IMG/VR virus record: IMGVR_UViG_3300029708_000226
Strand: one strand, 5' to 3'
DNA length: 64,000 nucleotides
From: a virus
Lineage: Duplodnaviria; Heunggongvirae; Uroviricota; Caudoviricetes
Shown here in pieces: positions 13,773-62,652 of the stretch. The first letter of the stretch is position 1, and each line of letters begins with the position of its first letter. A model generated the notes under the pieces. That model ran no database searches and was not told the DNA's origin. It saw nothing but the letters and a program-made list of their open reading frames with translations. A program made the translations under genes and the position numbers.

Positions 13773-14684
13773 TTAACGCACTTCGTCGCCCTTATGTGCT
13801 TTTTTGTAAGTAATATCAGTTTCTTTAATGTTTTCTTTAGCTTTTTCACGAATAATATTTTGTATGTTCTGGATATCACTGATTACTTTACTTTCTTCCT
13901 CATGATGAAAGAAACATTCGGAAAAATTAATTTTTCGTGTTTCATTTGAAGAAATGTGCTTGATTGAGGTATCGTTGTTCGTGATAAAAGCCTCAATTCT
14001 GCCGTCTTCTCTTTCCGGGAAAATGAGCTTTATATAAGGTTCTTTTGTGCCTGGATCCGTTCTTTGATAAATTTTAACATCCTTGTATTTATCGCTGATC
14101 GCGAAGTACAATTTCTGAATGTCAGAATCGAAAGTTATATTGGGTTTGTTGATAATATCCTCTTTTGTGTATTGTAATCCCGTGAAAATTGCGTTTTCGT
14201 GCTGTATATCCGCATAAGCGGTTTTAATGTAGAAACCAAAAGGCGATTCTCCATCCATATCTCTTTGCAAAACAACAGTTACCGCAGAGGTCTCTTTTTC
14301 TTTTACTACGCCGTTGTTGTTACTGAATCCATGTCCAATAGAATCGCCACCTATATCCGCCGATATACATAATTTCTGATAATCTTTTGGGTTTTTAAAT
14401 TCATATCTCTCCTTAAAAAGCCATTTGGTGATGGCATGAGAGCGGTATGCAACCACATTTGAGACTCCATCTTTTAATGATTCATCGTCCCAAAAGCTTG
14501 AAATATTTTCTTTTTCTTCTGTTATGATTCGTTTAATTAGCTCTTCATTAGCTATGTTTTCATGCAGTTCCTGAGAATGTCCCTTTGAGATATTGAGCAT
14601 TGCGTTGATTTCATCGAAAGCAGCATCTTCGAGCATTTCTTGATATGTATTCTGATCCATGTTTTTCAATGTTTCTCTATCCAT
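13773..14684 (-). CDS. 303-aa protein, paralog of 47391..48242 (MDRxTxxxMD...NxxKGHSxxLH...ESPFGFxxKTAYxDIxHE)
   Basis: Clear collinear similarity between the two ORF translations. Confidence 0.55.
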   Translation of the reverse strand: MDRETLKNMDQNTYQEMLEDAAFDEINAMLNISKGHSQELHENIANEELIKRIITEEKENISSFWDDESLKDGVSNVVAYRSHAITKWLFKERYEFKNPKDYQKLCISADIGGDSIGHGFSNNNGVVKEKETSAVTVVLQRDMDGESPFGFYIKTAYADIQHENAIFTGLQYTKEDIINKPNITFDSDIQKLYFAISDKYKDVKIYQRTDPGTKEPYIKLIFPEREDGRIEAFITNNDTSIKHISSNETRKINFSECFFHHEEESKVISDIQNIQNIIREKAKENIKETDITYKKAHKGDEVR

Positions 14685-32901: not shown

Positions 32902-32985
32902 TTATCTATTTTGATATATTTAATATGAAAGAAAAAGCCTTCCGGAAGTTATCCGGAAGGTTTGGAATATTATTATAAATATTAA

Positions 32986-33076
32986 CGCCGTGGCGGGGAG
33001 TCGAACCCCGAAACCGGATTTTACTCCGAGATGGTGGATTAGCAATCCACTGCTGTACCATTTGAGCCACCACGGC
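32986..33076 (-). tRNA. tRNA-Ser (anticodon GCT), class II
   Basis: Manual fold: GCCGTGG acceptor, anticodon loop TTGCTAA, long variable arm, T-loop TTCGACT. Confidence 0.65.
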
Positions 33077-33089
33077 AAGAAATATAAAC

Positions 33090-33159
33090 GGCCCATTGCG
33101 GATTCGAACCGCAGTCCCTGGGGTCAAGGCCCAGTGCATTGACCGCTATGCTAATGGGC
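33090..33159 (-). tRNA. tRNA, probably Gln (anticodon TTG); loop atypical
   Basis: Acceptor GCCCATT/AATGGGC, T-arm TGCGGTTCGAATCCGCA; anticodon loop CCTTGAC has C at position 33. Confidence 0.4.
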
Positions 33160-33165
33160 TAAAAA

Positions 33166-33257
33166 ACGCCAGTGACAGGACTCGAACCTGTACGTCGACA
33201 TAAATGCCGGCTTGCCTGTGTTCGAAGCAGGTGCTGTACCACTTGAGCCACACTGGC
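33166..33257 (-). tRNA. tRNA-Ser (anticodon CGA), class II
   Basis: Loop TTCGAAC; long variable arm; T-loop TTCGAGT. Confidence 0.6.
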
Positions 33258-33400
33258 AGACTCCCGTGCCCCGCAGATTGGCAGGTTTATCACGAATACC
33301 GCAGCCGTTAGTCAATTTCGACTGAAATACCGTTTAGCACGGGCTTTTTGCATATACACTGAATAGAAACAGGTGACTAATCTGCTTCGCACAGCTTAAA
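33258..33400 (-). ncRNA. Unassigned structured spacer within the tRNA array (no tRNA fold found)
   Basis: Long-range stem CCCGTGC (33262) / GCACGGG (33337) followed by CTTTTT; no ORF. Confidence 0.2.
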
Positions 33401-33407
33401 TGCAAAG

Positions 33408-33481
33408 ACATCGGTGGGATTCGAACCCACGATAAAACCTGTTTTGCAGACAGGCGCCTTAGACCACTCGACCACGATGCC
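33408..33481 (-). tRNA. tRNA-Cys (GCA)
   Basis: Anticodon arm CCTGT-CTGCAAA-ACAGG; T-loop TTCGAAT. Confidence 0.65.
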
Positions 33482-33489
33482 ATAATACT

Positions 33490-33562
33490 ACGGACAGCGG
33501 GACTCGAACCCGCAAAGTACGATTTAGAAGACCGTTGTTTTATCCAATTAGACATGCCCGTA
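33490..33562 (-). tRNA. tRNA-Arg (TCT)
   Basis: Loop CTTCTAA; T-loop TTCGAGT. Confidence 0.6.
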
Positions 33563-33572
33563 TAAAATATCC

Positions 33573-33645
33573 CCAGGCAGATTTGAACTGCCGTTCCCTG
33601 CGTGAGAGGCAGATGTCCTTGACCGCTAGACTATGGGGACTTAAC
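33573..33645 (-). tRNA. tRNA-Glu (CTC)
   Basis: Loop CTCTCAC; T-loop TTCAAAT. Confidence 0.55.
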
Positions 33646-33648
33646 GCT

Positions 33649-33737
33649 GTGACAGGGATTCGAACCCTGAAAGCGGGAATCTCACCCGACATGCCGGATT
33701 TCAAGGCCGGTGCTGTACCAGTTGAGCCATCACAGCA
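33649..33737 (-). tRNA. tRNA-Ser (TGA), class II
   Basis: Loop CTTGAAA; long variable arm. Confidence 0.6.
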
Positions 33738-33741
33738 AAAG

Positions 33742-33832
33742 CGGAACGGGAGGGACTTGAACCCTCAAAGCGTGGATTGACACGACATGTCCGGCTTCCA
33801 ACCGGGTCCTGTACCAATTGAGGCACCGCTCC
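33742..33832 (-). tRNA. tRNA-Ser (GGA), class II
   Basis: Loop TTGGAAG; long variable arm; T-loop TTCAAGT. Confidence 0.55.
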
Positions 33833-33860
33833 ATATCAGGCTCTTTAACAAGAGCCTTTA

Positions 33861-34382
33861 TCATTTTGAAATTTTATCAGCAATTCCGGATGCAACATAA
33901 GACTCCGGCTTAACCTTTGCCTCAAAACCCATTGAAGTGACCCAGCCTATGAGCTCAGGAATCAATTCCTTCGTCTTACCATGTTCAGAATAACCAGCAT
34001 CAATATGAATAGAAAACTCTGTGTTCAAAAATACGTCTTCATATTCCGTTGTCTCAAATATTGTAATAAGCTGTTCTGCTATTTCAAGTGAATCGCCGGT
34101 TTCCACACGAAGTTTTGTTCTTACATCTGAAATACGGTCACGTGCGTTAATCTTATAAAAGAAAATACCGCCGTGTCCTTCACAGATCACAGCAATTACA
34201 CTTACTTCTTTCGTATAATCAAAATTCTGCGAATCCGTACCGATCGTAATATGAATACCGGTACCATACTCTTTCATTCTTTCATAGTAAGCTTTTATAT
34301 ATTTTGGAATTTCCTGTATCATAAGCTCACCGTGTGATGGCGAAATCCAGTTTTCACTGTAATGTTTCTTACTCATGATCAC
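33861..34382 (-). CDS. Hypothetical protein (173 aa) embedded in the tRNA array
   Basis: ORF with a terminator hairpin (AGGCTCTTGTTAAAGAGCCT) at 33840-33860; no family recognised. Confidence 0.5.
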   Translation of the reverse strand: MIMSKKHYSENWISPSHGELMIQEIPKYIKAYYERMKEYGTGIHITIGTDSQNFDYTKEVSVIAVICEGHGGIFFYKINARDRISDVRTKLRVETGDSLEIAEQLITIFETTEYEDVFLNTEFSIHIDAGYSEHGKTKELIPELIGWVTSMGFEAKVKPESYVASGIADKISK

Positions 34383-34409
34383 GTTGCTCCTTTCTGATAT
34401 TTTTTAGCA

Positions 34410-34483
34410 GGCGCGGAGGGATTCGAACCCCCAGACAATCACGGTTTTGGAGACCGTTGCTGTACCAGTTGAGCCACGCACCC
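34410..34483 (-). tRNA. tRNA-Trp (CCA)
   Basis: Anticodon arm ACGGT-CTCCAAA-ACCGT. Confidence 0.65.
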
Positions 34484-34725
34484 ATAATAATGAACAATAA
34501 AAAACAGCCTCTTTTGATAAACTTTTTATCAGAAGATGCTGCAGAGAATGCCGGTAATTTTGTTATGCGAAAATTTTTGCATCAACAAATAAAGCAGTAC
34601 ATCTTCTTATCATGTCTACTCTCTGACCACGAACTATTGGATTGTCTGCTACATCTGTTTACGTTATGCATAATTATTTACTCCTTCCTGCAATTTTTCT
34701 GTATCTGCATAAAAACTGGAAAAAT

Positions 34726-34799
34726 ACGCCAAATCGGATTCGAACCGATACTAACAGGGGCTTAAACCCTGTGCCTCTGCCGATTGGGCTATTGGCGCA
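34726..34799 (-). tRNA. tRNA with Leu-type anticodon TAA but class-I architecture (5-nt variable region), A73
   Basis: GCGCCAA acceptor; anticodon arm CAGGG-TTTAAGC-CCCTG; variable region TTAGT; T-arm ATCGGTTCGAATCCGAT. Confidence 0.5.
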
Positions 34800-34803
34800 T
34801 AAT

Positions 34804-34876
34804 GGGTATGACAGGCCATGATCCTGCAACCTTCGGCTTAAGAGGCCGATACTCTGCCACTTGAGTTACATACCCG
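34804..34876 (-). tRNA. tRNA-Lys (CTT); non-canonical T-loop
   Basis: Anticodon arm TCGGC-CTCTTAA-GCCGA; T-loop ATCATGG. Confidence 0.55.
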
Positions 34877-34898
34877 TGGATACACATGCGGTATCAGT

Positions 34899-34982
34899 GC
34901 ACCCGACGAGACTCGAACTCGCATGGAAAGTAATTCCGCCAGATTAAAAGTCTGGTGCCATACCAATTAGGCGACGGATGCA
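34899..34982 (-). tRNA. Class-II tRNA (16-nt variable arm, A73) with anticodon TTT; identity unclear
   Basis: Anticodon arm CCAGA-CTTTTAA-TCTGG; variable arm CGGAATTACTTTCCAT; T-loop TTCGAGT. Confidence 0.45.
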
Positions 34983-35062
34983 TACATTATAACTTTGATA
35001 ATCGCTTGCATAACTGTTTTCGTTTCATGATTATTTCTCCTTTATTATAAAGATTTTCAATC

Positions 35063-35137
35063 CCAAGGACAGGATTTGAACCTGCGTTTGCCGGGTATGA
35101 ACCGGCCGTACTCGCCGCTATACTACCCTGGAGTAGC
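35063..35137 (-). tRNA. tRNA-Met/fMet/Ile2 (CAT)
   Basis: Anticodon arm GCCGG-TTCATAC-CCGGC. Confidence 0.55.
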
Positions 35138-35138
35138 G

Positions 35139-35209
35139 GGTCCAGGAGTCGAAGCCTGGTATCGCAAGGGTTATGAGCCCTGCATGGTAAATCCGTTCCA
35201 CTCACCCGC
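35139..35209 (-). tRNA. tRNA (CAT), second copy, atypical T-arm
   Basis: Loop CTCATAA; T-region CCAGGCTTCGACTCCTGG. Confidence 0.4.
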
Positions 35210-35212
35210 AAA

Positions 35213-35288
35213 TGCTGATAACAGGACTCGAACCTGTAACCCCATGCTTGTAAGGCATATGCTCTCCCAGTTGAGCTACATCAGCATA
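35213..35288 (-). tRNA. tRNA-Val (TAC)
   Basis: GCTGATG acceptor; loop CTTACAA; T-loop TTCGAGT. Confidence 0.6.
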
Positions 35289-35289
35289 G

Positions 35290-35362
35290 TTGTGGTGGAC
35301 AGAGTCGGACTGTCGTTAACCGCTCATCAGACGGTCTTTCTACCATTGAAATACACCACAAT
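35290..35362 (-). tRNA. tRNA-Ile (GAT)
   Basis: Loop CTGATGA. Confidence 0.45.
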
Positions 35363-35376
35363 ATTTTTTATGAAGC

Positions 35377-35449
35377 CTGTGACAAGATTTGAACTTGCAA
35401 CCCTCTACTTACGAGATAGACGCTCTGCCAATTAGAGCTACACAGGCAT
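35377..35449 (-). tRNA. tRNA-Thr (CGT)
   Basis: GCCTGTG acceptor; loop CTCGTAA; T-loop TTCAAAT. Confidence 0.65.
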
Positions 35450-35451
35450 TT

Positions 35452-35526
35452 TACAGTGCTCCCATGGCGACTCGAACGCCAACTACAGAGTTCGTAGCCC
35501 TGCCGTCTATCCATTAGCGTATGAGA
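35452..35526 (-). tRNA. tRNA-Arg (ACG)
   Basis: Anticodon arm CAGGG-CTACGAA-CTCTG; T-loop TTCGAGT. Confidence 0.55.
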
Positions 35527-35527
35527 G

Positions 35528-35600
35528 CATAGCAGGCGGTAACCGAATCGAACGGGTGTCTCACGGCTCAGAACCGCACGGTTTACCTCTAACCTAACCG
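35528..35600 (-). tRNA. tRNA, probably Gln (CTG)
   Basis: Loop TTCTGAG; T-loop TTCGATT. Confidence 0.4.
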
Positions 35601-35608
35601 CCTATAAG

Positions 35609-35682
35609 CCGCAGAAGGGACTCGAACCCTTAATCCCCTGATTACAAAGCAGGTGCATTACCATTGTGCTACAGCGGCATAT
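35609..35682 (-). tRNA. tRNA-Thr (TGT)
   Basis: Loop TTTGTAA; T-loop TTCGAGT. Confidence 0.55.
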
Positions 35683-35691
35683 TTAATTTCA

Positions 35692-35776
35692 GGGAGACCA
35701 GTGGGGCTCGAACCCACGTAGGAATTGCTTCCGCAGAGCCACAATCTGCTGCCTAACCAACTCGGTCACAGCCTCC
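35692..35776 (-). tRNA. tRNA-His (GTG) with G-1:C73 but an unusual 15-nt variable arm (85 nt)
   Basis: G-1 then GAGGCTG; anticodon arm GCAGA-TTGTGGC-TCTGC; variable arm GGAAGCAATTCCTAC; T-loop TTCGAGC; 3' GGTCTCC then C. Confidence 0.5.
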
Positions 35777-35779
35777 ATA

Positions 35780-35853
35780 GCTGGAATGGCGGGACTTGAA
35801 CCCACAACCTACCGGTTAACAGCCGGTCGCTCTACCATTGAGCTACAAACCAA
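35780..35853 (-). tRNA. tRNA-Asn (GTT) with two U-U mismatches in the acceptor stem
   Basis: Anticodon arm ACCGG-CTGTTAA-CCGGT; T-loop TTCAAGT; acceptor UGGUUUG/CAUUCCA. Confidence 0.5.
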
Positions 35854-35870
35854 TACTATATTATCTAAAT

Positions 35871-35945
35871 GGGGCGAGTGAGAATCGAACTCACGACACA
35901 CGGCTTATAAGGCCGCTGCTCTTGACCCCTGAGCTACCACCCCTT
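35871..35945 (-). tRNA. tRNA-Ile (TAT), the rare AUA decoder
   Basis: Anticodon arm GCGGC-CTTATAA-GCCGT; T-loop TTCGATT. Confidence 0.55.
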
Positions 35946-36037
35946 ATGAAATAAGGTTCGGTATAGATATTCGTCTCATGGTCTTGTTTCTCCTTTATAT
36001 TTGTTATACTCTTTCTACAGGAAAGAAAATGTACCAG

Positions 36038-36111
36038 AAGGGATTCGAACCCATAGAAAACCGGATTTGAGCCGGCCCCGTCTGCCAGTTGCGGCACTGA
36101 TGCATACAGTC
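36038..36111 (-). tRNA. tRNA with Leu-type anticodon CAA, class-I architecture, A73
   Basis: Anticodon arm GCCGG-CTCAAAT-CCGGT; 5-nt variable region; T-loop TTCGAAT. Confidence 0.5.
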
Positions 36112-36114
36112 GGA

Positions 36115-36188
36115 ATGACAGGTCTCGAACCTGCAGCCTCATGATCCCAAATCACGCGCGCTACCAATTGCGCCACATCCCGATACAG
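36115..36188 (-). tRNA. tRNA-Pro (TGG)
   Basis: Anticodon arm CGTGA-TTTGGGA-TCATG; T-loop TTCGAGA. Confidence 0.55.
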
Positions 36189-36264
36189 TGCCCATGAGTG
36201 GATTCGAACCACCAACCTCTGCCATCTGAAGACAGTTCGTCTGCCAATTGCGCCACATGGACAT
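36189..36264 (-). tRNA. tRNA with Leu-type anticodon CAG, class-I architecture, A73
   Basis: Anticodon arm CTGTC-TTCAGAT-GGCAG; variable region AGGTT; T-loop TTCGAAT. Confidence 0.5.
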
Positions 36265-36267
36265 CAC

Positions 36268-36347
36268 AGTACCTCGAATGGGAGTCGAACCCATAAACAA
36301 TCACAGAGTCCTTAGCTCTGCCGCTTTGCCAATTTGCGTACCGAGGC
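36268..36347 (-). tRNA. tRNA with Leu-type anticodon AAG; intermediate 9-nt variable region
   Basis: Anticodon arm CAGAG-CTAAGGA-CTCTG; T-loop TTCGACT. Confidence 0.45.
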
Positions 36348-36361
36348 ATATTTATTTTAAG

Positions 36362-36445
36362 TGGGCGAAGAAGGACTTGAACCTTCAGAAGCCGAAGCCA
36401 ACTGTTTTACAGACAGTACCGCTGCCAATTACGGGATATTCGCCC
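36362..36445 (-). tRNA. tRNA-Tyr (GTA), class II
   Basis: GGGCGAA/TTCGCCC acceptor, A73; loop CTGTAAA; long variable arm; T-loop TTCAAGT. Confidence 0.65.
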
Positions 36446-36450
36446 AAAAG

Positions 36451-36538
36451 TCGGCAGGGTGAGAGTCGAACTCACAATGTTTACCACGAGGGTCACAGTT
36501 TTACAGACTGCTTGCTTCAGCCTTTTGCATACCTGCCG
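36451..36538 (-). tRNA. Second tRNA-Tyr (GTA), class II, diverged sequence
   Basis: CGGCAGG/CCTGCCG acceptor, A73; loop CTGTAAA; ~19-nt variable arm. Confidence 0.55.
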
Positions 36539-36607
36539 TTAATAATATTCAGTTCCCATATAATAATAGTCTGGCATATCAGTCATCTCCTTTACATTTC
36601 TTAAGCT

Positions 36608-36681
36608 CTCACAGCAGGACTTGAACCTGCAACATCCCGGTTAACAGCCGGACGCTCTACCGATTGAGCTATGCGAGAATA
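36608..36681 (-). tRNA. tRNA-Asn (GTT), second copy
   Basis: Anticodon arm TCCGG-CTGTTAA-CCGGG; T-loop TTCAAGT. Confidence 0.6.
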
Positions 36682-36683
36682 GA

Positions 36684-36757
36684 GTGCGTGAACGGATTCG
36701 AACCGTCCCTTTCTGCTTGGAAGGCAGATGTGCTATCCGCTGACACTACACACACAT
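36684..36757 (-). tRNA. tRNA-Gly (TCC)
   Basis: Anticodon arm TCTGC-CTTCCAA-GCAGA; T-loop TTCGAAT. Confidence 0.6.
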
Positions 36758-36763
36758 AAGCGA

Positions 36764-36838
36764 CTCCAACGGGATTTGAACCCGTGTTATTCCTGCGTGA
36801 CAGGCAGGTGCCATAAACCAGCTAGGCGATGGAGCCAT
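36764..36838 (-). tRNA. tRNA-Asp (GTC)
   Basis: Anticodon arm CCTGC-CTGTCAC-GCAGG; T-loop TTCAAAT; G73. Confidence 0.6.
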
Positions 36839-36841
36839 AAT

Positions 36842-36915
36842 GCCTCGTTTCGGTTACGATCCGATCCTCTGGAGCTTCAATCCAGCGCTTCTACCAAGTT
36901 AGCTTACGAGGCTCG
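36842..36915 (-). tRNA. tRNA-Phe (GAA) with non-canonical T-loop
   Basis: GCCTCGT/ACGAGGC acceptor; loop TTGAAGC; T-loop ATCGTAA. Confidence 0.5.
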
Positions 36916-37025
36916 GTAAAGTCAGTATCGTCTTTACCGCCATAAAATCGTTTATCCATATTTTTTCAATGTCCTTTCGTATATTGTATAAATCCTGAGT
37001 GCCTGGTTCAGAATTTAAGAGCAGA

Positions 37026-37096
37026 TGACGGAACTCGAATCCGCATTTCTGACTTGGCAAGCCAGTGTATTAGCCAGCTATACGACATCTGCATGT
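37026..37096 (-). tRNA. tRNA-Gly (GCC)
   Basis: GCAGATG acceptor, U73; loop TTGCCAA; T-loop TTCGAGT. Confidence 0.6.
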
Positions 37097-37159
37097 GGGA
37101 CAAACGGAGTGCCTGGTTCCATAAGTCCCTGTTTTGTTGTATTACGGATATTTCCGTAG

Positions 37160-37232
37160 CGACCGATGCGGGATTCGAACCCACGTCTCGGGAGTGAAAT
37201 TCCCGTGACCTCGTCCTCTAGTCGAATCGGCC
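37160..37232 (-). tRNA. tRNA-Glu (TTC)
   Basis: Anticodon arm CGGGA-ATTTCAC-TCCCG; T-loop TTCGAAT. Confidence 0.5.
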
Positions 37233-37239
37233 AAATCAA

Positions 37240-37316
37240 TGGAGCATATGGGAATCGAACCCATCTGTTTTTCCTGTTTGCAAAACAGGCGACCACCCCT
37301 TGCAGTCCCATACCCC
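37240..37316 (-). tRNA. tRNA-Ala (TGC) with G3:U70
   Basis: GGGGTAT/ATGCTCC acceptor gives the G3-U70 Ala identity pair, A73; loop TTTGCAA. Confidence 0.65.
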
Positions 37317-37403
37317 ATATAATTAAAAAGACCACTAAACTAAGACAATTTCTTAATCCAGTGGTCATGATTTCATATTTCCAATCTATGCGCGGTTCCT
37401 GTT

Positions 37404-47390: not shown

Positions 47391-48242
47391 CTAATGAGTT
47401 ATATCCTGCTTCTTACTTTGTGTTATATTTCTGTTATGTGTTACATTATCTGCATAAGTCAGCATTTCGGTCAATTTGGGGCATTCAAGATAACATTCCA
47501 AAGAACTTGCTGTTCGTATATGATCAATTTCAGCCTTTTTGATTTTTGTTCCCAGTTCGCTTATGTAAGCAATGTATTTGTTATCGCCATTATCTTCTGA
47601 AATTTTAATTTCAGAATTTCCTTTATTATTTTGCAGCCAGATCTTCTTATCTGGATATTCATGTTTTAAACAATGATAAGCTTTTTCGATATTTGATGTG
47701 AACGGCATTTTGTTCTGAATAAAATCCGAAATATTGACTCTTAATCCAGTTTCTTCGGCACGTTCGTGAAAAATATCTACGTATGCCGTTTTAACGAAAA
47801 ATCCAAATGGCGATTCGTCAGAAAAATCTCTTTGAAGAACAACCGTCGTCATTGTTGTAGCCAGTTCTCTTCCATCAATCGTTATTCCGTGTCCTACCGG
47901 ATCGTCTCCCATATCTAATGTAAACGTCAGTGTATGATAATTTTGGGGTTCTTTGAAATCTATCTTTTCTGATGTGATCCAGTTTGAGATTTCTTTCGCT
48001 TTGTAATATATCGCATCCTGTAGTGTACTAACTAATGTTTCCGCATCGTAAAAACTGGAAACAGCCTGTTTCTCTTCTTTGACCATTCTAGTAATCATAT
48101 CATCTATCGATATATCTGTATGTAATGTGGAAGAATGTCCTTTATTAACATTTAAAATACAGGATACATCATCCATAACTGCTTCTTCAAGCTTTTCCTG
48201 ATATAATTCCGGGTCCATTCGCCTAATTGTGTCTCTATCCAT
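47391..48242 (-). CDS. 283-aa protein, paralog of 13773..14684
   Basis: Collinear similarity; same gene order (large protein then small paralog genes) as the 13.4-14.7 kb module. Confidence 0.55.
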   Translation of the reverse strand: MDRDTIRRMDPELYQEKLEEAVMDDVSCILNVNKGHSSTLHTDISIDDMITRMVKEEKQAVSSFYDAETLVSTLQDAIYYKAKEISNWITSEKIDFKEPQNYHTLTFTLDMGDDPVGHGITIDGRELATTMTTVVLQRDFSDESPFGFFVKTAYVDIFHERAEETGLRVNISDFIQNKMPFTSNIEKAYHCLKHEYPDKKIWLQNNKGNSEIKISEDNGDNKYIAYISELGTKIKKAEIDHIRTASSLECYLECPKLTEMLTYADNVTHNRNITQSKKQDITH

Positions 48243-48718: not shown

Positions 48719-50185
48719 ATGACAGAATCATATGTTTTGACGCTAAAACTGAATACTTCTCCTGAACAGGATGTATGGCTGAGCCACACTTTCTGGTGTG
48801 GACAGCAGATCTATAACGTTCTCGTGCGGCACTGCAAGAAGCAGCTCCGGAAGTTAATACAGGATCCGGAGTATCGAGATCTTCTGGTTGCGAGGAAGGA
48901 GTCCGGTTTTTCGAAAGCTGACAAGAACCGCATCAATCAGGAACTCGCAGATATCCGCATAGGTTATGGACTTAGTGAATATCAACTGCACGCATATGTT
49001 TCCGTACAGCAGCACAGATACAAGAAATCCATTGACTCTGATGTAGCCCAGAAGATCGCTTCTTCCGTATGGCGTTCTGTAGAGAAGTATCTGTTTGATA
49101 ACGGGAAATGCATTCATTTCAGGAAATACGATGAATTTGAAAGCATGGAGGGTAAGAAAAATACTTCCGGCATGCGGTTTAAAGACGGCCGGCTTCATTG
49201 GCGTGGGCAGGTGATCCAGCCGCAGATCCGGACGGATTATGACCGGAAAGCTCTGAAATCCCGTGTAAAGTACTGCCGTATCCAGAGGAAGCCCGTGGGT
49301 ACGAAATACCACTACTACTTGCAGCTGGTTCTGGAAGGAAAGCCCCCGGTAAAGCATCCGGTCGGTCATGGAACCGCCGGACTGGATATCGGGATCTCTA
49401 CCGCGGCTATCGTGACCAAGGATTCCTGTAAACTGACGGTACTCAGTTCCGATGCAAAAGATCATTCTGCGCAGATCAGGCGGACTCAGAGAGCCATGGA
49501 CCGGAGCAGACGCATCACGAATCCGGATAATTATCTGCCGGACGGCACTGTCCGCAAGGGTGCAAGGAAGTGGATTCGTTCGAAGCACTACAGGAAGCTT
49601 CAGTTCCGCAAGAAGTCCATGGAACGCCGGCATGCCGATGCGATAAATACCGGCCACCACCGGCTTGCGAATGAAATTGCCTCGAAGGCAGATACCGCGT
49701 ACGTGGAAAAGATGTTTTTCCATGGTCTTGCACGGAGATCGAAGTCTGCCACGAAGAAAGCCGATGGCCGGTTCCGGAGCAGGAAGCGGTTCGGAAAGTC
49801 CATAGGCAACCACGCACCGGCGGCATTCCTAAAAATTCTGGAAAGCCGGCTTGCTTCTAGCGGCGGGGAGTTAATTAAGATCGATACCGTAAGCTTCCGT
49901 GCCAGCCAGTACAATCATGTAACGGATGACTACGTCCGAAAGAAGCTTTCCTGCCGGGGAAGTTTTGTTGGCAGCCGTTATGTACAGAGAGACCTGTATT
50001 CGGCGTTCCTGCTAAAGAACAGTAACGACACCGGCACGGCTGCCGACAGACAGAAGTGCATCGACACCTTCCCCATGTTCCTGATAACACATAACGCCTG
50101 CATGGACGCGCTCCTTGCAGAGAACAAGAAATATCCTTCGAGCTTCGGTCTCCGGAGCTACAAATACCATAAACGTAACTGTTAA
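48719..50185 (+). CDS. tnpB: TnpB (IS200/IS605 OrfB-type RNA-guided nuclease)
   Basis: 488 aa; RuvC-I-like GLDIGISTAAIV; Arg/Lys-rich; C-terminal Cys-containing region; preceded by a plus-orientation copy of the cassette promoter motif and the palindrome. Confidence 0.8.
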   Translation: MTESYVLTLKLNTSPEQDVWLSHTFWCGQQIYNVLVRHCKKQLRKLIQDPEYRDLLVARKESGFSKADKNRINQELADIRIGYGLSEYQLHAYVSVQQHRYKKSIDSDVAQKIASSVWRSVEKYLFDNGKCIHFRKYDEFESMEGKKNTSGMRFKDGRLHWRGQVIQPQIRTDYDRKALKSRVKYCRIQRKPVGTKYHYYLQLVLEGKPPVKHPVGHGTAGLDIGISTAAIVTKDSCKLTVLSSDAKDHSAQIRRTQRAMDRSRRITNPDNYLPDGTVRKGARKWIRSKHYRKLQFRKKSMERRHADAINTGHHRLANEIASKADTAYVEKMFFHGLARRSKSATKKADGRFRSRKRFGKSIGNHAPAAFLKILESRLASSGGELIKIDTVSFRASQYNHVTDDYVRKKLSCRGSFVGSRYVQRDLYSAFLLKNSNDTGTAADRQKCIDTFPMFLITHNACMDALLAENKKYPSSFGLRSYKYHKRNC

Positions 50186-60974: not shown

Positions 60975-62075
60975 TTAGGCAATATAATGAATATCCATAT
61001 CATAATTCAATGCGATTTTTACATAAGTAATATGCATATTTTTATATGCATCCATATGGCTCTCATCGATGTAATCATCATTAAAATCTACTTTAACTGC
61101 ATCTCCGGAAACAACAAAGCTGTTTGTTTTCTTTTCATAGATCGCATCTTTCCCTAAAAAAACAATATTGATACTATTATTCGCATTATCATCTACCCAG
61201 AACCTATTTCTATTTGTACCAAACAGATTTAGGCTAACGGATTCATTACAGAAGGTAAAGCCTTCCTGTGTATAAACTGTTACCGAATAAGTAGTATCTT
61301 TTTCGCCGGTATTTACAATATTCAGATCCATAATTGCATCTTCAAAAGTTTCCCCATCATTCAATTCCAAAGCAATCGCAGAAAGACAATCATAATTAAG
61401 CTTAATCTTTTTGGAGAATGCTACTACCTTATGAATCTCAGAATGATATTCCGGTGCTAACTTATCCAATAAGTACTCTCTTACCTCTTCTGCAGTAGGA
61501 TAGTTGAATCTAAAATGATAATGAAATCTACCGGGTCTATTAATTAGATATTCATTTAAAGACCGATATTTATTACAGGTAATTACAAACAACTTCTTTC
61601 CGTGGCTGGTACCATCAAACAAAGAAAGCATCTGCGCCTGCGGATCTTCACTATCTGCGGAAGCGAAGGTTTTATCAAATTCATCAAATAATACCAGCAC
61701 TTCATTTTGAATGCTGTTAATAAAGTCGCTAATTCCGGGAATATATTCATTCACCAAAATCACAGGCATTCCGTTTTCGATTGCCTCATTAGAAAGTAAT
61801 CTGGCAAATAGAGATTTTCCGATTCCTTTATCTCCGCTTAAAATAACACCGAGGTTCTTGTTTGTGTTTTTGAATCTGTTTAAGACCTTTCTTACTTTGG
61901 ATTCATGTACCCCGTAAATCTTTTCCTCTTTAATTTCCAAGTTCGCCTGCTTCTCTAAAAAGAAACCGGTAAATTTAGAAAAGCCTACCTTATAGGTCTG
62001 CGCAGGAAGATTTTCAAGTACGATTAAATCCTCACCATAAATTTTATACGTTGTTCCTGTTTCAATAATTTTCAT
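60975..62075 (-). CDS. AAA+ ATPase (~366 aa)
   Basis: Walker A LSGDKGIGKSLFARLL and Walker B VLVLFDEFD; start refined to MKIIETG (RBS AAGGAGA). Confidence 0.75.
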   Translation of the reverse strand: MKIIETGTTYKIYGEDLIVLENLPAQTYKVGFSKFTGFFLEKQANLEIKEEKIYGVHESKVRKVLNRFKNTNKNLGVILSGDKGIGKSLFARLLSNEAIENGMPVILVNEYIPGISDFINSIQNEVLVLFDEFDKTFASADSEDPQAQMLSLFDGTSHGKKLFVITCNKYRSLNEYLINRPGRFHYHFRFNYPTAEEVREYLLDKLAPEYHSEIHKVVAFSKKIKLNYDCLSAIALELNDGETFEDAIMDLNIVNTGEKDTTYSVTVYTQEGFTFCNESVSLNLFGTNRNRFWVDDNANNSINIVFLGKDAIYEKKTNSFVVSGDAVKVDFNDDYIDESHMDAYKNMHITYVKIALNYDMDIHYIA

Positions 62076-62167
62076 TGATAATTTTCTCCTTTTTTCTTTT
62101 GATGGTATTAATATGAAAGAAAAACAGCAAAGAAAAACAGTCCTGAATGAGACTGTTTTTATAAGTT

Positions 62168-62652
62168 TTATACCGATTTCCTTAAATACAAATCTTCGTA
62201 ACATTCACAATTTTTACCAACACAACATGTGCAACCACCATCGTAATTACGAAAACAATTATAAGGAACTTTCCAATGTATTCTGGTGAGAATAACTTCC
62301 TCAAAACCAAACATATACATAAGGGTATATAAATTTACTTTATCTTTTTTTTGGTAAACGCCAACAGCTACAGTAAATATCGTCATGCGCATCTTTTAAC
62401 ATTTCAACAAACAATGCTTGCATATATCCTTTGTGTCTGTATTGTGGATGAGTGCAGGTCCAATCTATTTCCAAATGGCCATATTCGCTATTCGAAGTAA
62501 GTCCTGTCATTGCAACTAAAACATTGTCTGCAAATTACAAATAATATCTGTCTGTTAAATTTTCATACGGTTCTAAATCATTTTTATTCCCAAAACAAAT
62601 TAGCATAAGCTGTTGGATTATATTTTTATCATTTAATGTACTTTTACGAATC
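62168..62652 (-). pseudogene. Disrupted GNAT acetyltransferase-like gene with an in-frame TAA (~62533-62535) and a frameshift at an A8 run (62343-62350)
   Basis: Strong RBS AGGAGGACGAAAAT-ATG at 62652; the reading frame MIRKST...DRYYL*FADNVLVAMTGLTSNSEYGHLEIDWTCTHPQYRHKGYMQALFVEMLKDA continues across the stop; the C-terminal part (LYTLMYMFGFEEV...) is in another frame reached through the homopolymer. Confidence 0.5.

What the first reader, a model, noticed from the sequence alone, without database searches (positions are those of the whole stretch)
34726..36347. Anticodon/architecture mismatches: four Leu-anticodon tRNAs without the long variable arm, a class-II tRNA with a UUU anticodon, and a long-armed tRNA-His
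Manual folding gives four tRNAs with the four Leu anticodons (TAA 34726-34799, CAA 36038-36111, CAG 36189-36264, AAG 36268-36347). Together they would decode all six Leu codons. Three have a 5-nt variable region and one has 9 nt, where bacterial tRNA-Leu is always class II. All have A73. Conversely, 34899-34982 is a clean class-II tRNA (16-nt hairpin variable arm, A73) whose anticodon loop CTTTTAA gives UUU, a Lys codon reader. No class-I tRNA-Lys(UUU) was found, only Lys(CUU). 35692-35776 has His identity (G-1:C73, GUG) plus a 15-nt variable arm. Asn(GUU) at 35780-35853 has two U-U acceptor mismatches. An Ile(UAU) tRNA is present. If these fold as read, the element carries a re-engineered Leu-decoding set. 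One hypothesis is short-arm Leu tRNAs that escape host anticodon nucleases or tRNA-targeting toxins keyed to the class-II shape. Another is altered aminoacylation identity.
Basis: inference. Interest (0 to 1): 0.8.

Follow-up and report, generated by a model that had tools for sequence, protein, structure and literature searches.

The report
Phage tRNAs with swapped arm architecture
A gut phage's 35-gene tRNA array really does carry leucine tRNAs without the usual long arm and lysine and histidine tRNAs with an extra arm. These odd shapes are conserved and widespread in phage tRNA arrays, so they are a general, little-described phage trait and not a rewritten genetic code in this one element.

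Summary
ARAGORN and Rfam find 35 tRNAs on the minus strand (32985-37317). Four Leu-anticodon tRNAs have 5-9 nt variable regions. One tRNA(UUU) has a 16-nt variable hairpin. One tRNA-His (G-1, C73) has a 15-nt variable hairpin.

All six are kept in 25 related human-gut contigs, with compensatory stem changes and invariant anticodons.

The interpretation needs correcting. Short-arm tRNA-Leu is not unique to this element:
- It is annotated in cultured phages (Felix O1, Streptomyces and Enterococcus phages).
- It makes up about 40% of Leu tRNAs in my sample of viral tRNA arrays.
- It is known to be charged in Streptomyces coelicolor.

The four copies here keep a Leu-type body: 3-bp D stem, 11-nt D loop, U8-A14, A15-U48 and A73.

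Long-arm tRNA-Lys(UUU) is also widespread in phage and mobile tRNA arrays. It usually sits beside another Lys tRNA, and I found no description of it.

AAA is the second most used codon in the window, and a conserved gene reads with the standard code. Recoding is therefore unlikely.

Best reading: these are ordinary decoders with shapes that their synthetases tolerate. The shapes are possibly kept because they resist tRNA-cutting nucleases, but that is not shown.

The parts
32985..37317 (-). Array of 35 tRNA genes covering all 20 amino acids, interrupted by one ORF and a few short spacers
   Evidence: ARAGORN. All 35 score above the Rfam tRNA gathering score. The same gene order is found in L003, L129 and L136-L158.
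34725..34798 (-). tRNA-Leu(UAA), class I shape: 5-nt variable region, 3-bp D stem with 11-nt D loop, G1.U72, A73
   Evidence: G31-C39 is replaced by A31-U39 in L129/L146. Full-length matches to annotated phage tRNA-Leu genes. Its top two body-profile scores are the two Leu models.
36030..36103 (-). tRNA-Leu(CAA), class I shape: 5-nt variable region, A73, U50.U64. The window copy has C2.A71 where most relatives have C2-G71.
   Evidence: The Leu models are its top two body-profile scores.
36189..36262 (-). tRNA-Leu(CAG), class I shape: 5-nt variable region, A37, A73
   Evidence: Six pairs have compensatory changes across 8 variants, and the anticodon is invariant.
36270..36347 (-). tRNA-Leu(AAG): 9-nt variable region without a hairpin, G1.U72, A73, A34
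   Evidence: Seven pairs have compensatory changes across 6 variants, with 100% of cells paired.
34898..34981 (-). Long-arm tRNA(UUU), read as tRNA-Lys: 7/5 cloverleaf, 16-nt variable region with a 4-bp hairpin, A73. It is the only AAA reader in the array.
   Evidence: Among relatives the hairpin stem is invariant and its loop varies. It belongs to a diverse family in viral and mobile arrays.
34803..34875 (-). tRNA-Lys(CUU), class I, immediately next to the long-arm UUU tRNA. Its T loop is AUCAUGG, without the usual UUC.
35693..35776 (-). Long-arm tRNA-His(GUG): encoded G-1 (35776), C73, 15-nt variable hairpin, Ser-like D arm. The window copy alone has A10 where relatives have G10.
   Evidence: G-1 and C73 are conserved in all relatives and in an independent long-arm His in L023.
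35781..35852 (-). tRNA-Asn(GUU) with U4.U69 and U5.U68 in the acceptor stem
   Evidence: The acceptor stem is identical in L003.
35870..35943 (-). tRNA-Ile(UAU)
   Evidence: 64.6 bits.
33861..34382 (-). ORF inside the array encoding an RNase H-like protein (Pfam PF04308, YkuK/DUF458)
   Evidence: Pfam E 2.4e-37. Conserved at 72-100% identity at the same place in relatives. A role in tRNA handling is only a guess.

Best explanation
These are genuine, selectively maintained tRNA genes of a large phage of gut Firmicutes. Relatives include a 199-kb contig binned with a Lachnospiraceae genome. The tRNAs most likely decode according to their anticodons (Leu, Lys, His).

The unusual shapes occur where the cognate synthetase can tolerate them.
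- LeuRS reads the discriminator and the D-arm/core. It does not read the anticodon, and the long arm is not strictly required. The arm can therefore be lost while the Leu-type D arm, U8-A14, A15-U48 and A73 are kept.
- LysRS reads the UUU anticodon and A73.
- HisRS reads G-1:C73.
- A hairpin can therefore be added to the variable region of Lys and His tRNAs.

Both shapes are widespread types in phage and mobile tRNA arrays and are not peculiar to this window.

The array supplies a near-complete decoding set during infection. The most likely reason the altered shapes are kept is that they make the phage copies poor substrates for tRNA-directed nucleases. These could be host defence nucleases or the phage's own RNases.

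Shown: the genes, the folds, their conservation, the covariation, the Leu-type body, the distribution across phages, and standard codon meaning in one gene.

Inferred: the charging identity of the UUU tRNA, and any nuclease resistance.
For: The tRNAs are real and under constraint.
- Rfam scores are 37-58 bits.
- 25 related contigs keep all six odd tRNAs.
- Stems show compensatory changes while anticodons stay invariant.

Leu identity.
- With the anticodon arm and variable region removed, all four have the two Leu profiles as ranks 1 and 2, 10-16 bits above any other isotype.
- All four have a 2-3 bp D stem (2 Watson-Crick pairs in the window's CAG copy, 3 in relatives), an 11-nt D loop (C/A)AA(U/C)(U/C)GGCA(G/A)A, U8, A14, A15, U48 and A73.
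- These match the E. coli identity set listed in PMC6614811.
- Removing the arm from Aquifex tRNA-Leu mainly lowers affinity (PMC2377443).
- S. coelicolor LeuRS charges a type I tRNA-Leu.

Generality of short-arm Leu.
- The Leu(UAA) query hits 509 phage records, 320 of them over at least 80% of its length.
- Three Felix O1 tRNA-Leu genes of 78-79 nt are annotated.
- In sampled arrays 39 of 92 Leu tRNAs have variable regions of 10 nt or less. All 49 Ser tRNAs keep the arm, as expected if synthetase tolerance sets the limits.

Long-arm Lys.
- With the same anticodon arm there are 25 viral stretches with a long arm and 78 with a short one.
- Across 185,579 species genomes there are only 11 real cases, nine of them in loci with several tRNA genes.
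- In 23 diverse members, 14 of 20 cloverleaf pairs covary, and nearly all (21 of 23) have a variable hairpin with a 3-5 bp stem.
- 16 of 28 distinct members lie next to another Lys tRNA, although Lys is only 13% of tRNAs in those loci.
- Long-arm Lys(CUU) also exists.
- Huge phage LR745206 has four Lys tRNAs in a row, three of them long-armed.

Standard decoding.
- AAA is 520 of 9,669 codons, the second most used.
- In the C5-methyltransferase gene, AAA aligns with conserved K in 4 of 5 columns, AAG with K in 6 of 6, and Leu codons mostly with L.

His identity. G-1 and C73 are conserved in all relatives and in an independent long-arm His.

Precedents for nuclease escape.
- tRNA-Lys(UUU) is cleaved by PARIS AriB and by a bacterial Schlafen.
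- PtuAB of Retron-Eco7 and Septu cut the variable loop of tRNA-Tyr, and a phage tRNA-Tyr needs its longer variable loop to neutralise the system.
- The window itself encodes two proteins with the CdiA-CT RNase A domain. The prototype of that domain degrades nearly all cellular tRNA.
Against: - No charging or cleavage data exist for any of these tRNAs.
- PMC6614811 describes E. coli LeuRS as charging only type II tRNA-Leu, so tolerance of a short arm may depend on the host.
- The long-arm UUU tRNA has A73, U8-A14, A15-U48 and G18G19, which overlap the LeuRS identity set. It also shares U35, A73 and a long arm with bacterial tRNA-Tyr. Mischarging therefore cannot be excluded from sequence.
- The body-profile test is weak. 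Only 19 of 35 window tRNAs get their own isotype as top hit. For the UUU tRNA the Lys models lead Asp by under 2 bits.
- The long-arm His scores best on the long-Lys profile, not on His.
- Long arms occur in many isotypes, including Gln, Met, Trp, Cys and Ala. There is no clear match to the target list of any one nuclease.
- The codon check rests on one gene and small counts.
Confidence: 0.45

Rival explanations
1. Same decoders, but the shapes have no adaptive value. Phage tRNA genes turn over quickly and are copied and remoulded from other tRNAs. Loss or gain of the variable arm then simply persists wherever the synthetase does not care. On this view the architecture records ancestry and relaxed constraint, not counter-defence.
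For: - The pattern follows synthetase tolerance: Ser never loses the arm (49 of 49) while Leu often does (39 of 92). That is all this view requires.
- Bodies look mixed. The His and Cys tRNAs have Ser/Leu-like D arms, and independent long-arm Lys bodies score best on Ser, Cys, Lys or Leu profiles.
- Many tRNAs in the array carry other oddities: U.U pairs, T loops without UUC, and 8-nt variable regions.
- Long arms appear in many isotypes without an obvious link to nuclease targets.
Against: - Gaining a stable 3-5 bp hairpin, often capped by a GAAA-type loop, and keeping it in very different phages with compensatory stem changes points to selection on the arm itself.
- Within this lineage the Lys variable stem is invariant while its loop varies in sequence and length.
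- Long-arm Lys(UUU) is essentially confined to tRNA arrays and is not seen as a stand-alone chromosomal tRNA.
Confidence: 0.3
2. Altered aminoacylation. The class II tRNA(UUU) is charged by LeuRS, TyrRS or SerRS, as the nematode nev-tRNAs and the bacterial allo-tRNAs are. It would then insert a non-cognate amino acid at AAA/AAG. Alternatively, the short 'Leu' tRNAs carry another amino acid.
For: - nev-tRNAs are class II tRNAs with Gly or Ile anticodons that are charged only with Leu (PMC3333845).
- The UUU tRNA has A73, U8-A14, A15-U48 and G18G19, which overlap the bacterial LeuRS identity set.
- It also shares U35 and A73 with tRNA-Tyr (established knowledge).
- LeuRS does not read the anticodon.
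Against: - AAA is the second most used codon in the window, and this is the array's only AAA reader.
- AAA and AAG align with conserved Lys in a methyltransferase gene.
- Long-arm UUU tRNAs sit next to other Lys tRNAs far more often than chance predicts (16 of 28), and long-arm CUU isoacceptors exist.
- No Leu, Ser or Tyr profile is among the top five for the body of the window's UUU tRNA.
- The architecture is 7/5, not the 8/4 or 9/3 of allo-tRNAs.
- The four Leu tRNAs are clearly Leu-like in body.
Confidence: 0.07
3. Not translation adaptors. The odd tRNAs are decoys or inhibitors that soak up tRNA-directed nucleases or other host factors, or they are decaying pseudogenes.
For: [quoted passage not shown]
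- Some copies carry mismatches: C2.A71 in the window's Leu(CAA), A10.C25 in its His, and U.U pairs in Asn.
Against: - Anticodons are invariant and all four stems are maintained by compensatory change. Pseudogenes would not show this.
- The set is complementary. It covers all 20 amino acids, and these six are the array's only Leu, His and AAA readers.
- Identity elements for the cognate synthetases are kept.
Confidence: 0.05

Closest known systems
Type I (short variable loop) tRNA-Leu, as in Streptomyces coelicolor tRNA-Leu(CAA) and animal mitochondria (Fan et al. 2019, PMC6614811)
   Same: Leu anticodon on a cloverleaf with a 5-nt variable region. U8-A14 is retained. In S. coelicolor this tRNA type is charged by a bacterial LeuRS.
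   Different: - Here all Leu isoacceptors in the array are short-armed, and none is long-armed.
- The genes are phage-borne. They belong to a sequence family shared with Felix O1, Streptomyces and other phages, with D arm UAGCCCAAnnGGCAGAGGC, frequent G1.U72, and A73.
- Charging by the host LeuRS is untested.
Phage tRNAs that escape tRNA-targeting defences: T5 tRNA-Lys(UUU), Thr and Asn against PARIS AriB; SP15 and T5 tRNA-Tyr against Retron-Eco7 or Septu PtuAB (PMC12409363, PMC12673091, PMC11555353, PMC13096335, PMC10264068)
   Same: They are phage-encoded isoacceptors of tRNAs that defence nucleases cut, Lys(UUU) above all. In the tRNA-Tyr case the length of the variable loop decides the outcome.
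   Different: [quoted passage not shown] Here the tRNA changes class: the arm is lost from Leu and gained by Lys and His. Resistance has not been tested for these.
Class II tRNAs with anticodons that are neither Leu nor Ser: nematode nev-tRNAs (PMC3333845) and bacterial allo-tRNAs (Mukai et al. 2017, PMC5389517)
   Same: A long variable arm combined with an anticodon of a class I amino acid.
   Different: - nev-tRNAs derive from tRNA-Leu and are charged with Leu.
- allo-tRNAs have 8/4 or 9/3 acceptor/T-stem geometry and Ser or Leu identity.
- The tRNAs here are 7/5 and carry the identity marks of the anticodon's own amino acid: UUU with A73 for Lys, G-1:C73 for His.
- They cluster with cognate isoacceptors, and their bodies do not look Leu-like.
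Long tRNA gene arrays of mobile elements and large phages (Tran et al. 2016, PMC4758250; Morgado and Vicente 2018-2019; Santamaria-Gomez et al. 2021, PMC8421152)
   Same: A dense array of about 35 tRNA genes covering all amino acids, on a mobile or viral genome. A nuclease-type ORF is embedded in it.
   Different: In the passages I searched of one of those papers (PMC8421152) no change of tRNA class is mentioned; the other array papers were not read.

Membership tests
Type I (short-arm) tRNA-Leu | Leu anticodon in a standard 7-nt loop with U33 | tested here: met
   UAA, CAA, CAG and AAG by ARAGORN and by hand. They are invariant in all relatives.
Type I (short-arm) tRNA-Leu | Variable region too short to form an arm (about 4-9 nt) | tested here: met
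   5, 5, 5 and 9 nt. Relatives have 5-10 nt.
Type I (short-arm) tRNA-Leu | Leu-type core: U8-A14, A15-U48, G18G19, 3-bp D stem with large D loop, A73 | tested here: met
   Sequences and alignments. The Leu body profiles rank 1 and 2 for all four. The identity set is as listed in PMC6614811.
Type I (short-arm) tRNA-Leu | Leucylation by the host LeuRS | not testable with these tools
   Needs aminoacylation assays. Literature support is indirect only.
Class II (long variable arm) tRNA | Variable region over 10 nt that forms a stem-loop | tested here: met
   Lys(UUU): 16 nt with GGAA/UUCC. His: 15 nt with GGAA/UUCC.
Bacterial tRNA-Lys | UUU (or CUU) anticodon plus A73 | tested here: met
   A73 is present in 20 of 23 diverse long-arm members; 3 have U73.
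Bacterial tRNA-Lys | Class I architecture (4-5 nt variable loop) | tested here: not met
   16-nt variable arm. If it is a tRNA-Lys, it is therefore a structural variant of one.
Bacterial tRNA-Lys | Charged with lysine | not testable with these tools
   Indirect support only: adjacency to Lys tRNAs, AAA usage, codon check.
Bacterial tRNA-His | Extra G-1 opposite C73, with GUG anticodon | tested here: met
   G at 35776, C73, GUG. Conserved in all 22 relatives that have the gene and in the independent L023 copy.
nev-tRNA / allo-tRNA (mischarging class II tRNAs) | allo-tRNA: 8/4 or 9/3 acceptor/T-stem geometry | tested here: not met
   7-bp acceptor stem and 5-bp T stem.
nev-tRNA / allo-tRNA (mischarging class II tRNAs) | Body derived from tRNA-Leu or tRNA-Ser | tested here: inconclusive
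   For the window's UUU tRNA no Leu, Ser or Tyr profile is in the top five. Independent long-arm Lys bodies score best on Ser (9), Cys (7), Lys (5) and long-arm Leu (4) profiles. The method has low power.
nev-tRNA / allo-tRNA (mischarging class II tRNAs) | Charged with Leu or Ser against the anticodon | not testable with these tools
   Needs charging assays.
Phage counter-defence tRNAs | Phage-encoded isoacceptor of a tRNA that defence nucleases target | tested here: met
   Lys(UUU), Asn(GUU), Thr(UGU) and His(GUG) are all in the array. Targets are as reported.
Phage counter-defence tRNAs | Resistance to the nuclease and rescue of infection | not testable with these tools
   Needs cleavage and plaque assays.

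The most novel reading that the evidence does not exclude
Phage and mobile tRNA arrays systematically change tRNA class as a counter-measure to nucleases that read tRNA shape. They strip the arm from Leu and graft a stable hairpin onto Lys, His, Asn, Thr and others. In this phage the shape change may work together with its own two RNase A-like (CdiA-CT type) enzymes. Those enzymes would destroy the host tRNA pool while the reshaped 35-tRNA set takes over translation.

A still bolder reading is that the class II tRNA(UUU) carries Leu or Tyr. I put that at about 5%.
Probability: 0.3. Interest if true: 0.8.

Novelty: new variant of a known kind. Interest (0 to 1): 0.55.

Why it matters
tRNA class is textbook-stable in bacteria: Leu, Ser and Tyr have the long arm and all others have the short loop. 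Here, and in many other phage arrays, that rule is broken in both directions, apparently while the identity marks of the cognate amino acid are kept.

If the shapes do protect against tRNA-cutting defences such as PARIS, PrrC, PtuAB or Schlafen-type nucleases, or against a phage's own tRNases, this would be a second route of escape alongside the known point mutations in the anticodon loop. The prediction is simple to test by swapping the arm and measuring cleavage and charging.

There are practical consequences too. Annotation pipelines name these genes from the anticodon alone. Long-arm Lys and His tRNAs, which a synthetase may still accept, are also ready-made scaffolds for tRNA engineering.

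If the shapes are neutral, they still map which synthetases tolerate gain or loss of the arm in nature.

Tried and rejected
- The search for related loci with the RNase H-like ORF in IMG/VR found no relative.
- An exact-protein lookup of the 282-aa neighbouring ORF found nothing on record.
- BLAST of the window's long-arm Lys(UUU), and of a second family member, against 50,697 cultured or deposited phage records gave no annotated long-arm tRNA-Lys. The only match was to an unannotated 635-kb uncultured phage.
- Pairwise identity among the array's own tRNAs did not reveal a parent for the long-arm Lys or His; everything sits at about 62-72%.
- My isotype profiles, built from ARAGORN-called viral tRNAs, were first biased for Lys because the training set shared the searched anticodon arm. 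After removing that arm the method was decisive only for Leu.
- I considered an origin of long-arm Lys and His from tRNA-Tyr, which shares U35 and A73. The profiles gave it no support.
- I considered an intron or a ribozyme in the variable region. Bacteria have no splicing system for that site, and Rfam found nothing but tRNA.
- I considered stop- or sense-codon recoding. There is no suppressor tRNA, and codon meaning is standard in one conserved gene.
- phmmer of an RNase A-like ORF against PDB sequences gave no significant hit.
- Rfam does not recognise the tRNA-like element at 35134-35211 (12 bits).
- Nine literature searches found no paper describing a change of class in phage tRNAs. The library lacks most subscription journals, so this is weak evidence of absence.


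Full report
**What is there.** ARAGORN finds 35 tRNA genes on the minus strand between 32985 and 37317. Every one exceeds the Rfam tRNA gathering score of 29 bits.
- The flagged genes score as follows: Leu(UAA) 58.5, long Lys(UUU) 58.0, Leu(AAG) 44.7, Leu(CAG) 44.0, Leu(CAA) 38.8 and long His 36.8 bits.
- The four Leu-anticodon tRNAs have variable regions of 5, 5, 5 and 9 nt and A73.
- The UUU tRNA is a 7/5 cloverleaf with a 16-nt variable region that forms a GGAA/UUCC hairpin, and it has A73.
- The GUG tRNA has an encoded G-1 (35776), C73 and a 15-nt variable hairpin.
- Asn(GUU) has U4.U69 and U5.U68, and an Ile(UAU) gene is present.
- The window has no class II tRNA-Leu and no class I tRNA-Lys(UUU).
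The gene is at 36030-36103.

**Context.** Almost all genes lie on the minus strand, and G+C is about 0.38.
- Several proteins match PHROG families.
- The AAA ATPase at 60975-62204 is 47% identical to a protein of Enterococcus Herelleviridae phages, where that gene also lies inside the tRNA array.
- A syntenic relative is filed as viral in IMG/VR (L003). Another lies on a 199-kb contig binned with a Lachnospiraceae genome (L129). Twenty-two more come from metagenome assemblies, several of them titled human gut.
- I read the element as a large phage of gut Firmicutes. No structural gene was seen in this window, so a large plasmid-like element is not strictly excluded.

**Are the odd tRNAs real genes under selection?** Yes.
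- All relatives keep four short Leu tRNAs (75-81 nt), the long Lys(UUU) (85-86 nt) and the long His (84 nt).
- Leu(CAG): eight variants are 97.5% paired on the cloverleaf, with six pairs changed on both sides. Examples are the anticodon stem CUGUC/GGCAG versus CUGGU/ACCAG versus CUAUC/GAUAG, and the T stem GGUGG/CCACU versus GGAAG/CUUCU.
- Leu(AAG): six variants are 100% paired, with seven such pairs.
- In both, no shuffle of 500 reaches the observed covariation score, and slid controls pair only 30-55%.
- Leu(UAA) shows G31-C39 replaced by A31-U39.
- Anticodons never change.
- In the Lys(UUU) tRNA the variable stem is invariant, while its loop varies in sequence and length.
- The window's His carries a private G10-to-A change, and its Leu(CAA) a C2.A71 mismatch that most relatives lack.

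**The short Leu tRNAs are Leu tRNAs that lost the arm.**
- All four have a 2-3 bp D stem (2 Watson-Crick pairs in the window's CAG copy, 3 in relatives), an 11-nt D loop (C/A)AA(U/C)(U/C)GGCA(G/A)A, U8, A14, A15, U48 and A73. Two also have G1.U72.
- That is the arrangement of bacterial class II tRNA-Leu, and it matches the E. coli identity set listed in PMC6614811.
- I built rough isotype profiles from about 700 distinct ARAGORN-called tRNA sequences from unrelated viral and array loci, with both the anticodon arm and the variable region removed. The two Leu profiles ranked first and second for all four, 10-16 bits ahead of any other isotype.
- LeuRS does not read the anticodon. Deleting the arm of Aquifex tRNA-Leu mainly lowers affinity (PMC2377443).
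- S. coelicolor has a natural type I tRNA-Leu(CAA) that its LeuRS charges (PMC6614811).
- One caution: the same paper treats E. coli LeuRS as charging only type II tRNA-Leu.

**Short-arm Leu is common in phages.**
- The window's Leu(UAA) matches 509 phage records, 320 of them over at least 80% of its length. Most of the rows listed are annotated tRNA-Leu.
- Felix O1 has three tRNA-Leu genes of 78-79 nt, CCA included.
- Streptomyces phage Wofford has two of 76 nt.
- Enterococcus phage vB_OCPT_Bop has one long and one short.
- These genes share a recognisable body: D arm UAGCCCAAnnGGCAGAGGC, frequent G1.U72, and A73.
- In my sample of viral and array loci, 39 of 92 Leu tRNAs have variable regions of 10 nt or less. 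All 49 Ser tRNAs keep the arm. That is expected if the synthetase sets the limit, because SerRS needs the arm.

**The long-arm tRNA(UUU) belongs to a widespread, apparently undescribed type.**
- I searched for a pattern requiring this anticodon arm followed by a long gap before the T loop. It found 25 viral stretches, and all 25 are long tRNA(UUU) genes. The short-gap version found 78.
- In one genome for each of 185,579 species the long-gap pattern gave 30 hits. Only 11 are tRNAs, and nine of those lie in loci with several tRNA genes.
- Across 23 diverse members, 14 of 20 cloverleaf pairs covary.
- Nearly all members (21 of 23) fold the variable region into a hairpin with a 3-5 bp stem. Twenty have A73 and three have U73.
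- Sixteen of 28 distinct members lie directly next to another Lys tRNA, although Lys makes up 13% of tRNAs in those loci.
- Long-arm Lys(CUU) exists too.
- A deposited 635-kb phage has four Lys tRNAs in a row, three of them long-armed.
- Hairpin-bearing variable regions also turn up in Asn, Thr, His, Met, Gln, Cys, Trp, Ile, Ala and Gly. None were seen in 185 Glu, Phe, Asp, Val and Pro tRNAs.

**Which amino acids?**
- His is safe. G-1, C73 and GUG are conserved in every relative and in an independent long-arm His.
- For UUU I favour Lys, for four reasons. LysRS depends chiefly on the anticodon and A73 (established knowledge). The gene keeps company with Lys tRNAs. It is the array's only AAA reader. 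And AAA is the second most used codon here, at 520 of 9,669.
- In the C5-methyltransferase gene aligned with 105 homologues, AAA falls on conserved K in 4 of 5 columns, AAG in 6 of 6, and the Leu codons mostly on L.
- This does not prove charging. The tRNA also has U8-A14, A15-U48, G18G19 and A73, which overlap the LeuRS set. Nematode nev-tRNAs show that class II tRNAs with foreign anticodons can be leucylated (PMC3333845).
- My profile test is too weak to settle the question for Lys or His.

**How it most likely works.** The array provides a near-complete decoding set for a phage whose codon usage is rich in A and T. Why the shapes are kept is inference.
- tRNA-Lys(UUU) is a favoured target of defence nucleases: PARIS AriB, which cuts the 3' strand of the anticodon stem next to the variable region, and a bacterial Schlafen.
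- PtuAB of Retron-Eco7 and Septu cuts the variable loop of tRNA-Tyr. A phage tRNA-Tyr needs its longer loop to neutralise the system.
- A class change could therefore spoil recognition while leaving synthetase recognition intact.
- A neutral account fits most of the same data: arms come and go wherever the synthetase does not care. I rate it only a little lower.

**A lead from the surroundings.** Two paralogous ORFs (13773-14684 and 47391-48242, 36% identical) carry the CdiA-CT RNase A domain (Pfam PF18431, E about 1e-10). The prototype of that domain degrades nearly all tRNA when expressed in E. coli (PMC5435912). The phage may therefore attack host tRNA itself and rely on its own reshaped set. 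This is untested.

**Verdict.** The element-specific 're-engineering' and 'altered identity' readings are not supported.
- Short-arm tRNA-Leu is already present in well-known phage genomes and has a characterised bacterial counterpart.
- Long-arm tRNA-Lys and tRNA-His in phage arrays appear to be undescribed in the literature I could search.
- I file the finding as a new variant of a known kind (phage-encoded tRNAs), of moderate interest, with a clear experimental path.

Noticed in passing
window 13773-14684 (-) and 47391-48242 (-): Two paralogous ORFs (303 and 283 aa, 36% identical) carry the Pfam PF18431 'bacterial CdiA-CT RNase A' domain, above the gathering score. The prototype toxin degrades nearly all cellular tRNA in E. 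coli. The phage may attack host tRNA and replace it with its own set.
   Followed up: partly
window 33861-34382 (-): An RNase H-like (PF04308, YkuK/DUF458) ORF sits inside the tRNA array between Ser(GGA) and Trp. It is conserved at 72-100% identity at the same place in related contigs. A role in tRNA processing is possible but unknown.
   Followed up: partly
window 35134-35211 (-): A tRNA-sized spacer between Met(CAU) and Val(UAC) folds into a cloverleaf-like shape. It has a CAU anticodon, three G-C pairs closing the anticodon stem as in initiator tRNAs, a U.U at 1:72, A73 and an 8-nt T loop. ARAGORN and Rfam miss it (12 bits). It is nearly identical in 15 relatives. It may be a non-canonical initiator-like tRNA.
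   Followed up: partly
window 34803-34875 (-), 36841-36912 (-), 35289-35360 (-): Lys(CUU), Phe(GAA) and Ile(GAU) have T loops without the usual UUC (AUCAUGG, AUCGUAA, UCCGACU). The Lys(CUU) loop is conserved in relatives. A CRISPR-associated Schlafen nuclease is reported to cut the UUC motif of T loops (PMC13462974).
   Followed up: no
window 32985-33832 (-) and 33406-33481 (-): The four Ser tRNAs have class I-like 8-nt D loops, while the Cys and long-arm His tRNAs have Ser/Leu-like D arms (CGAGUGGUCUAAGG, CCGAGUUGGUUAGG). This suggests that tRNA bodies have been remoulded between isotypes in this array.
   Followed up: partly
window 36270-36347 (-) and 35457-35528 (-): Leu(AAG) and Arg(ACG) both have A34. 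Reading CUC and CUA would need deamination of the Leu tRNA to inosine, which bacterial TadA normally performs only on tRNA-Arg(ACG).
   Followed up: no
L109, L121, L128, L133 (alphaproteobacterial genome bins): Arrays of 32-35 tRNAs carry long-arm Lys(UUU) 91 nt and Lys(CUU) 88 nt with U73. They also carry Gln(UUG) 90 nt, Ala(GGC) 101 nt with a 26-nt variable arm, and a short Leu(UAA) beside long Leu(CAA) and Leu(CAG).
   Followed up: no
window 48719-50185 (+): One of the few plus-strand genes in the window. It matches a PHROG transposase family (phrog_506, E 2e-40) and sits in a locally G+C-richer stretch, so it is probably an insertion sequence.
   Followed up: no
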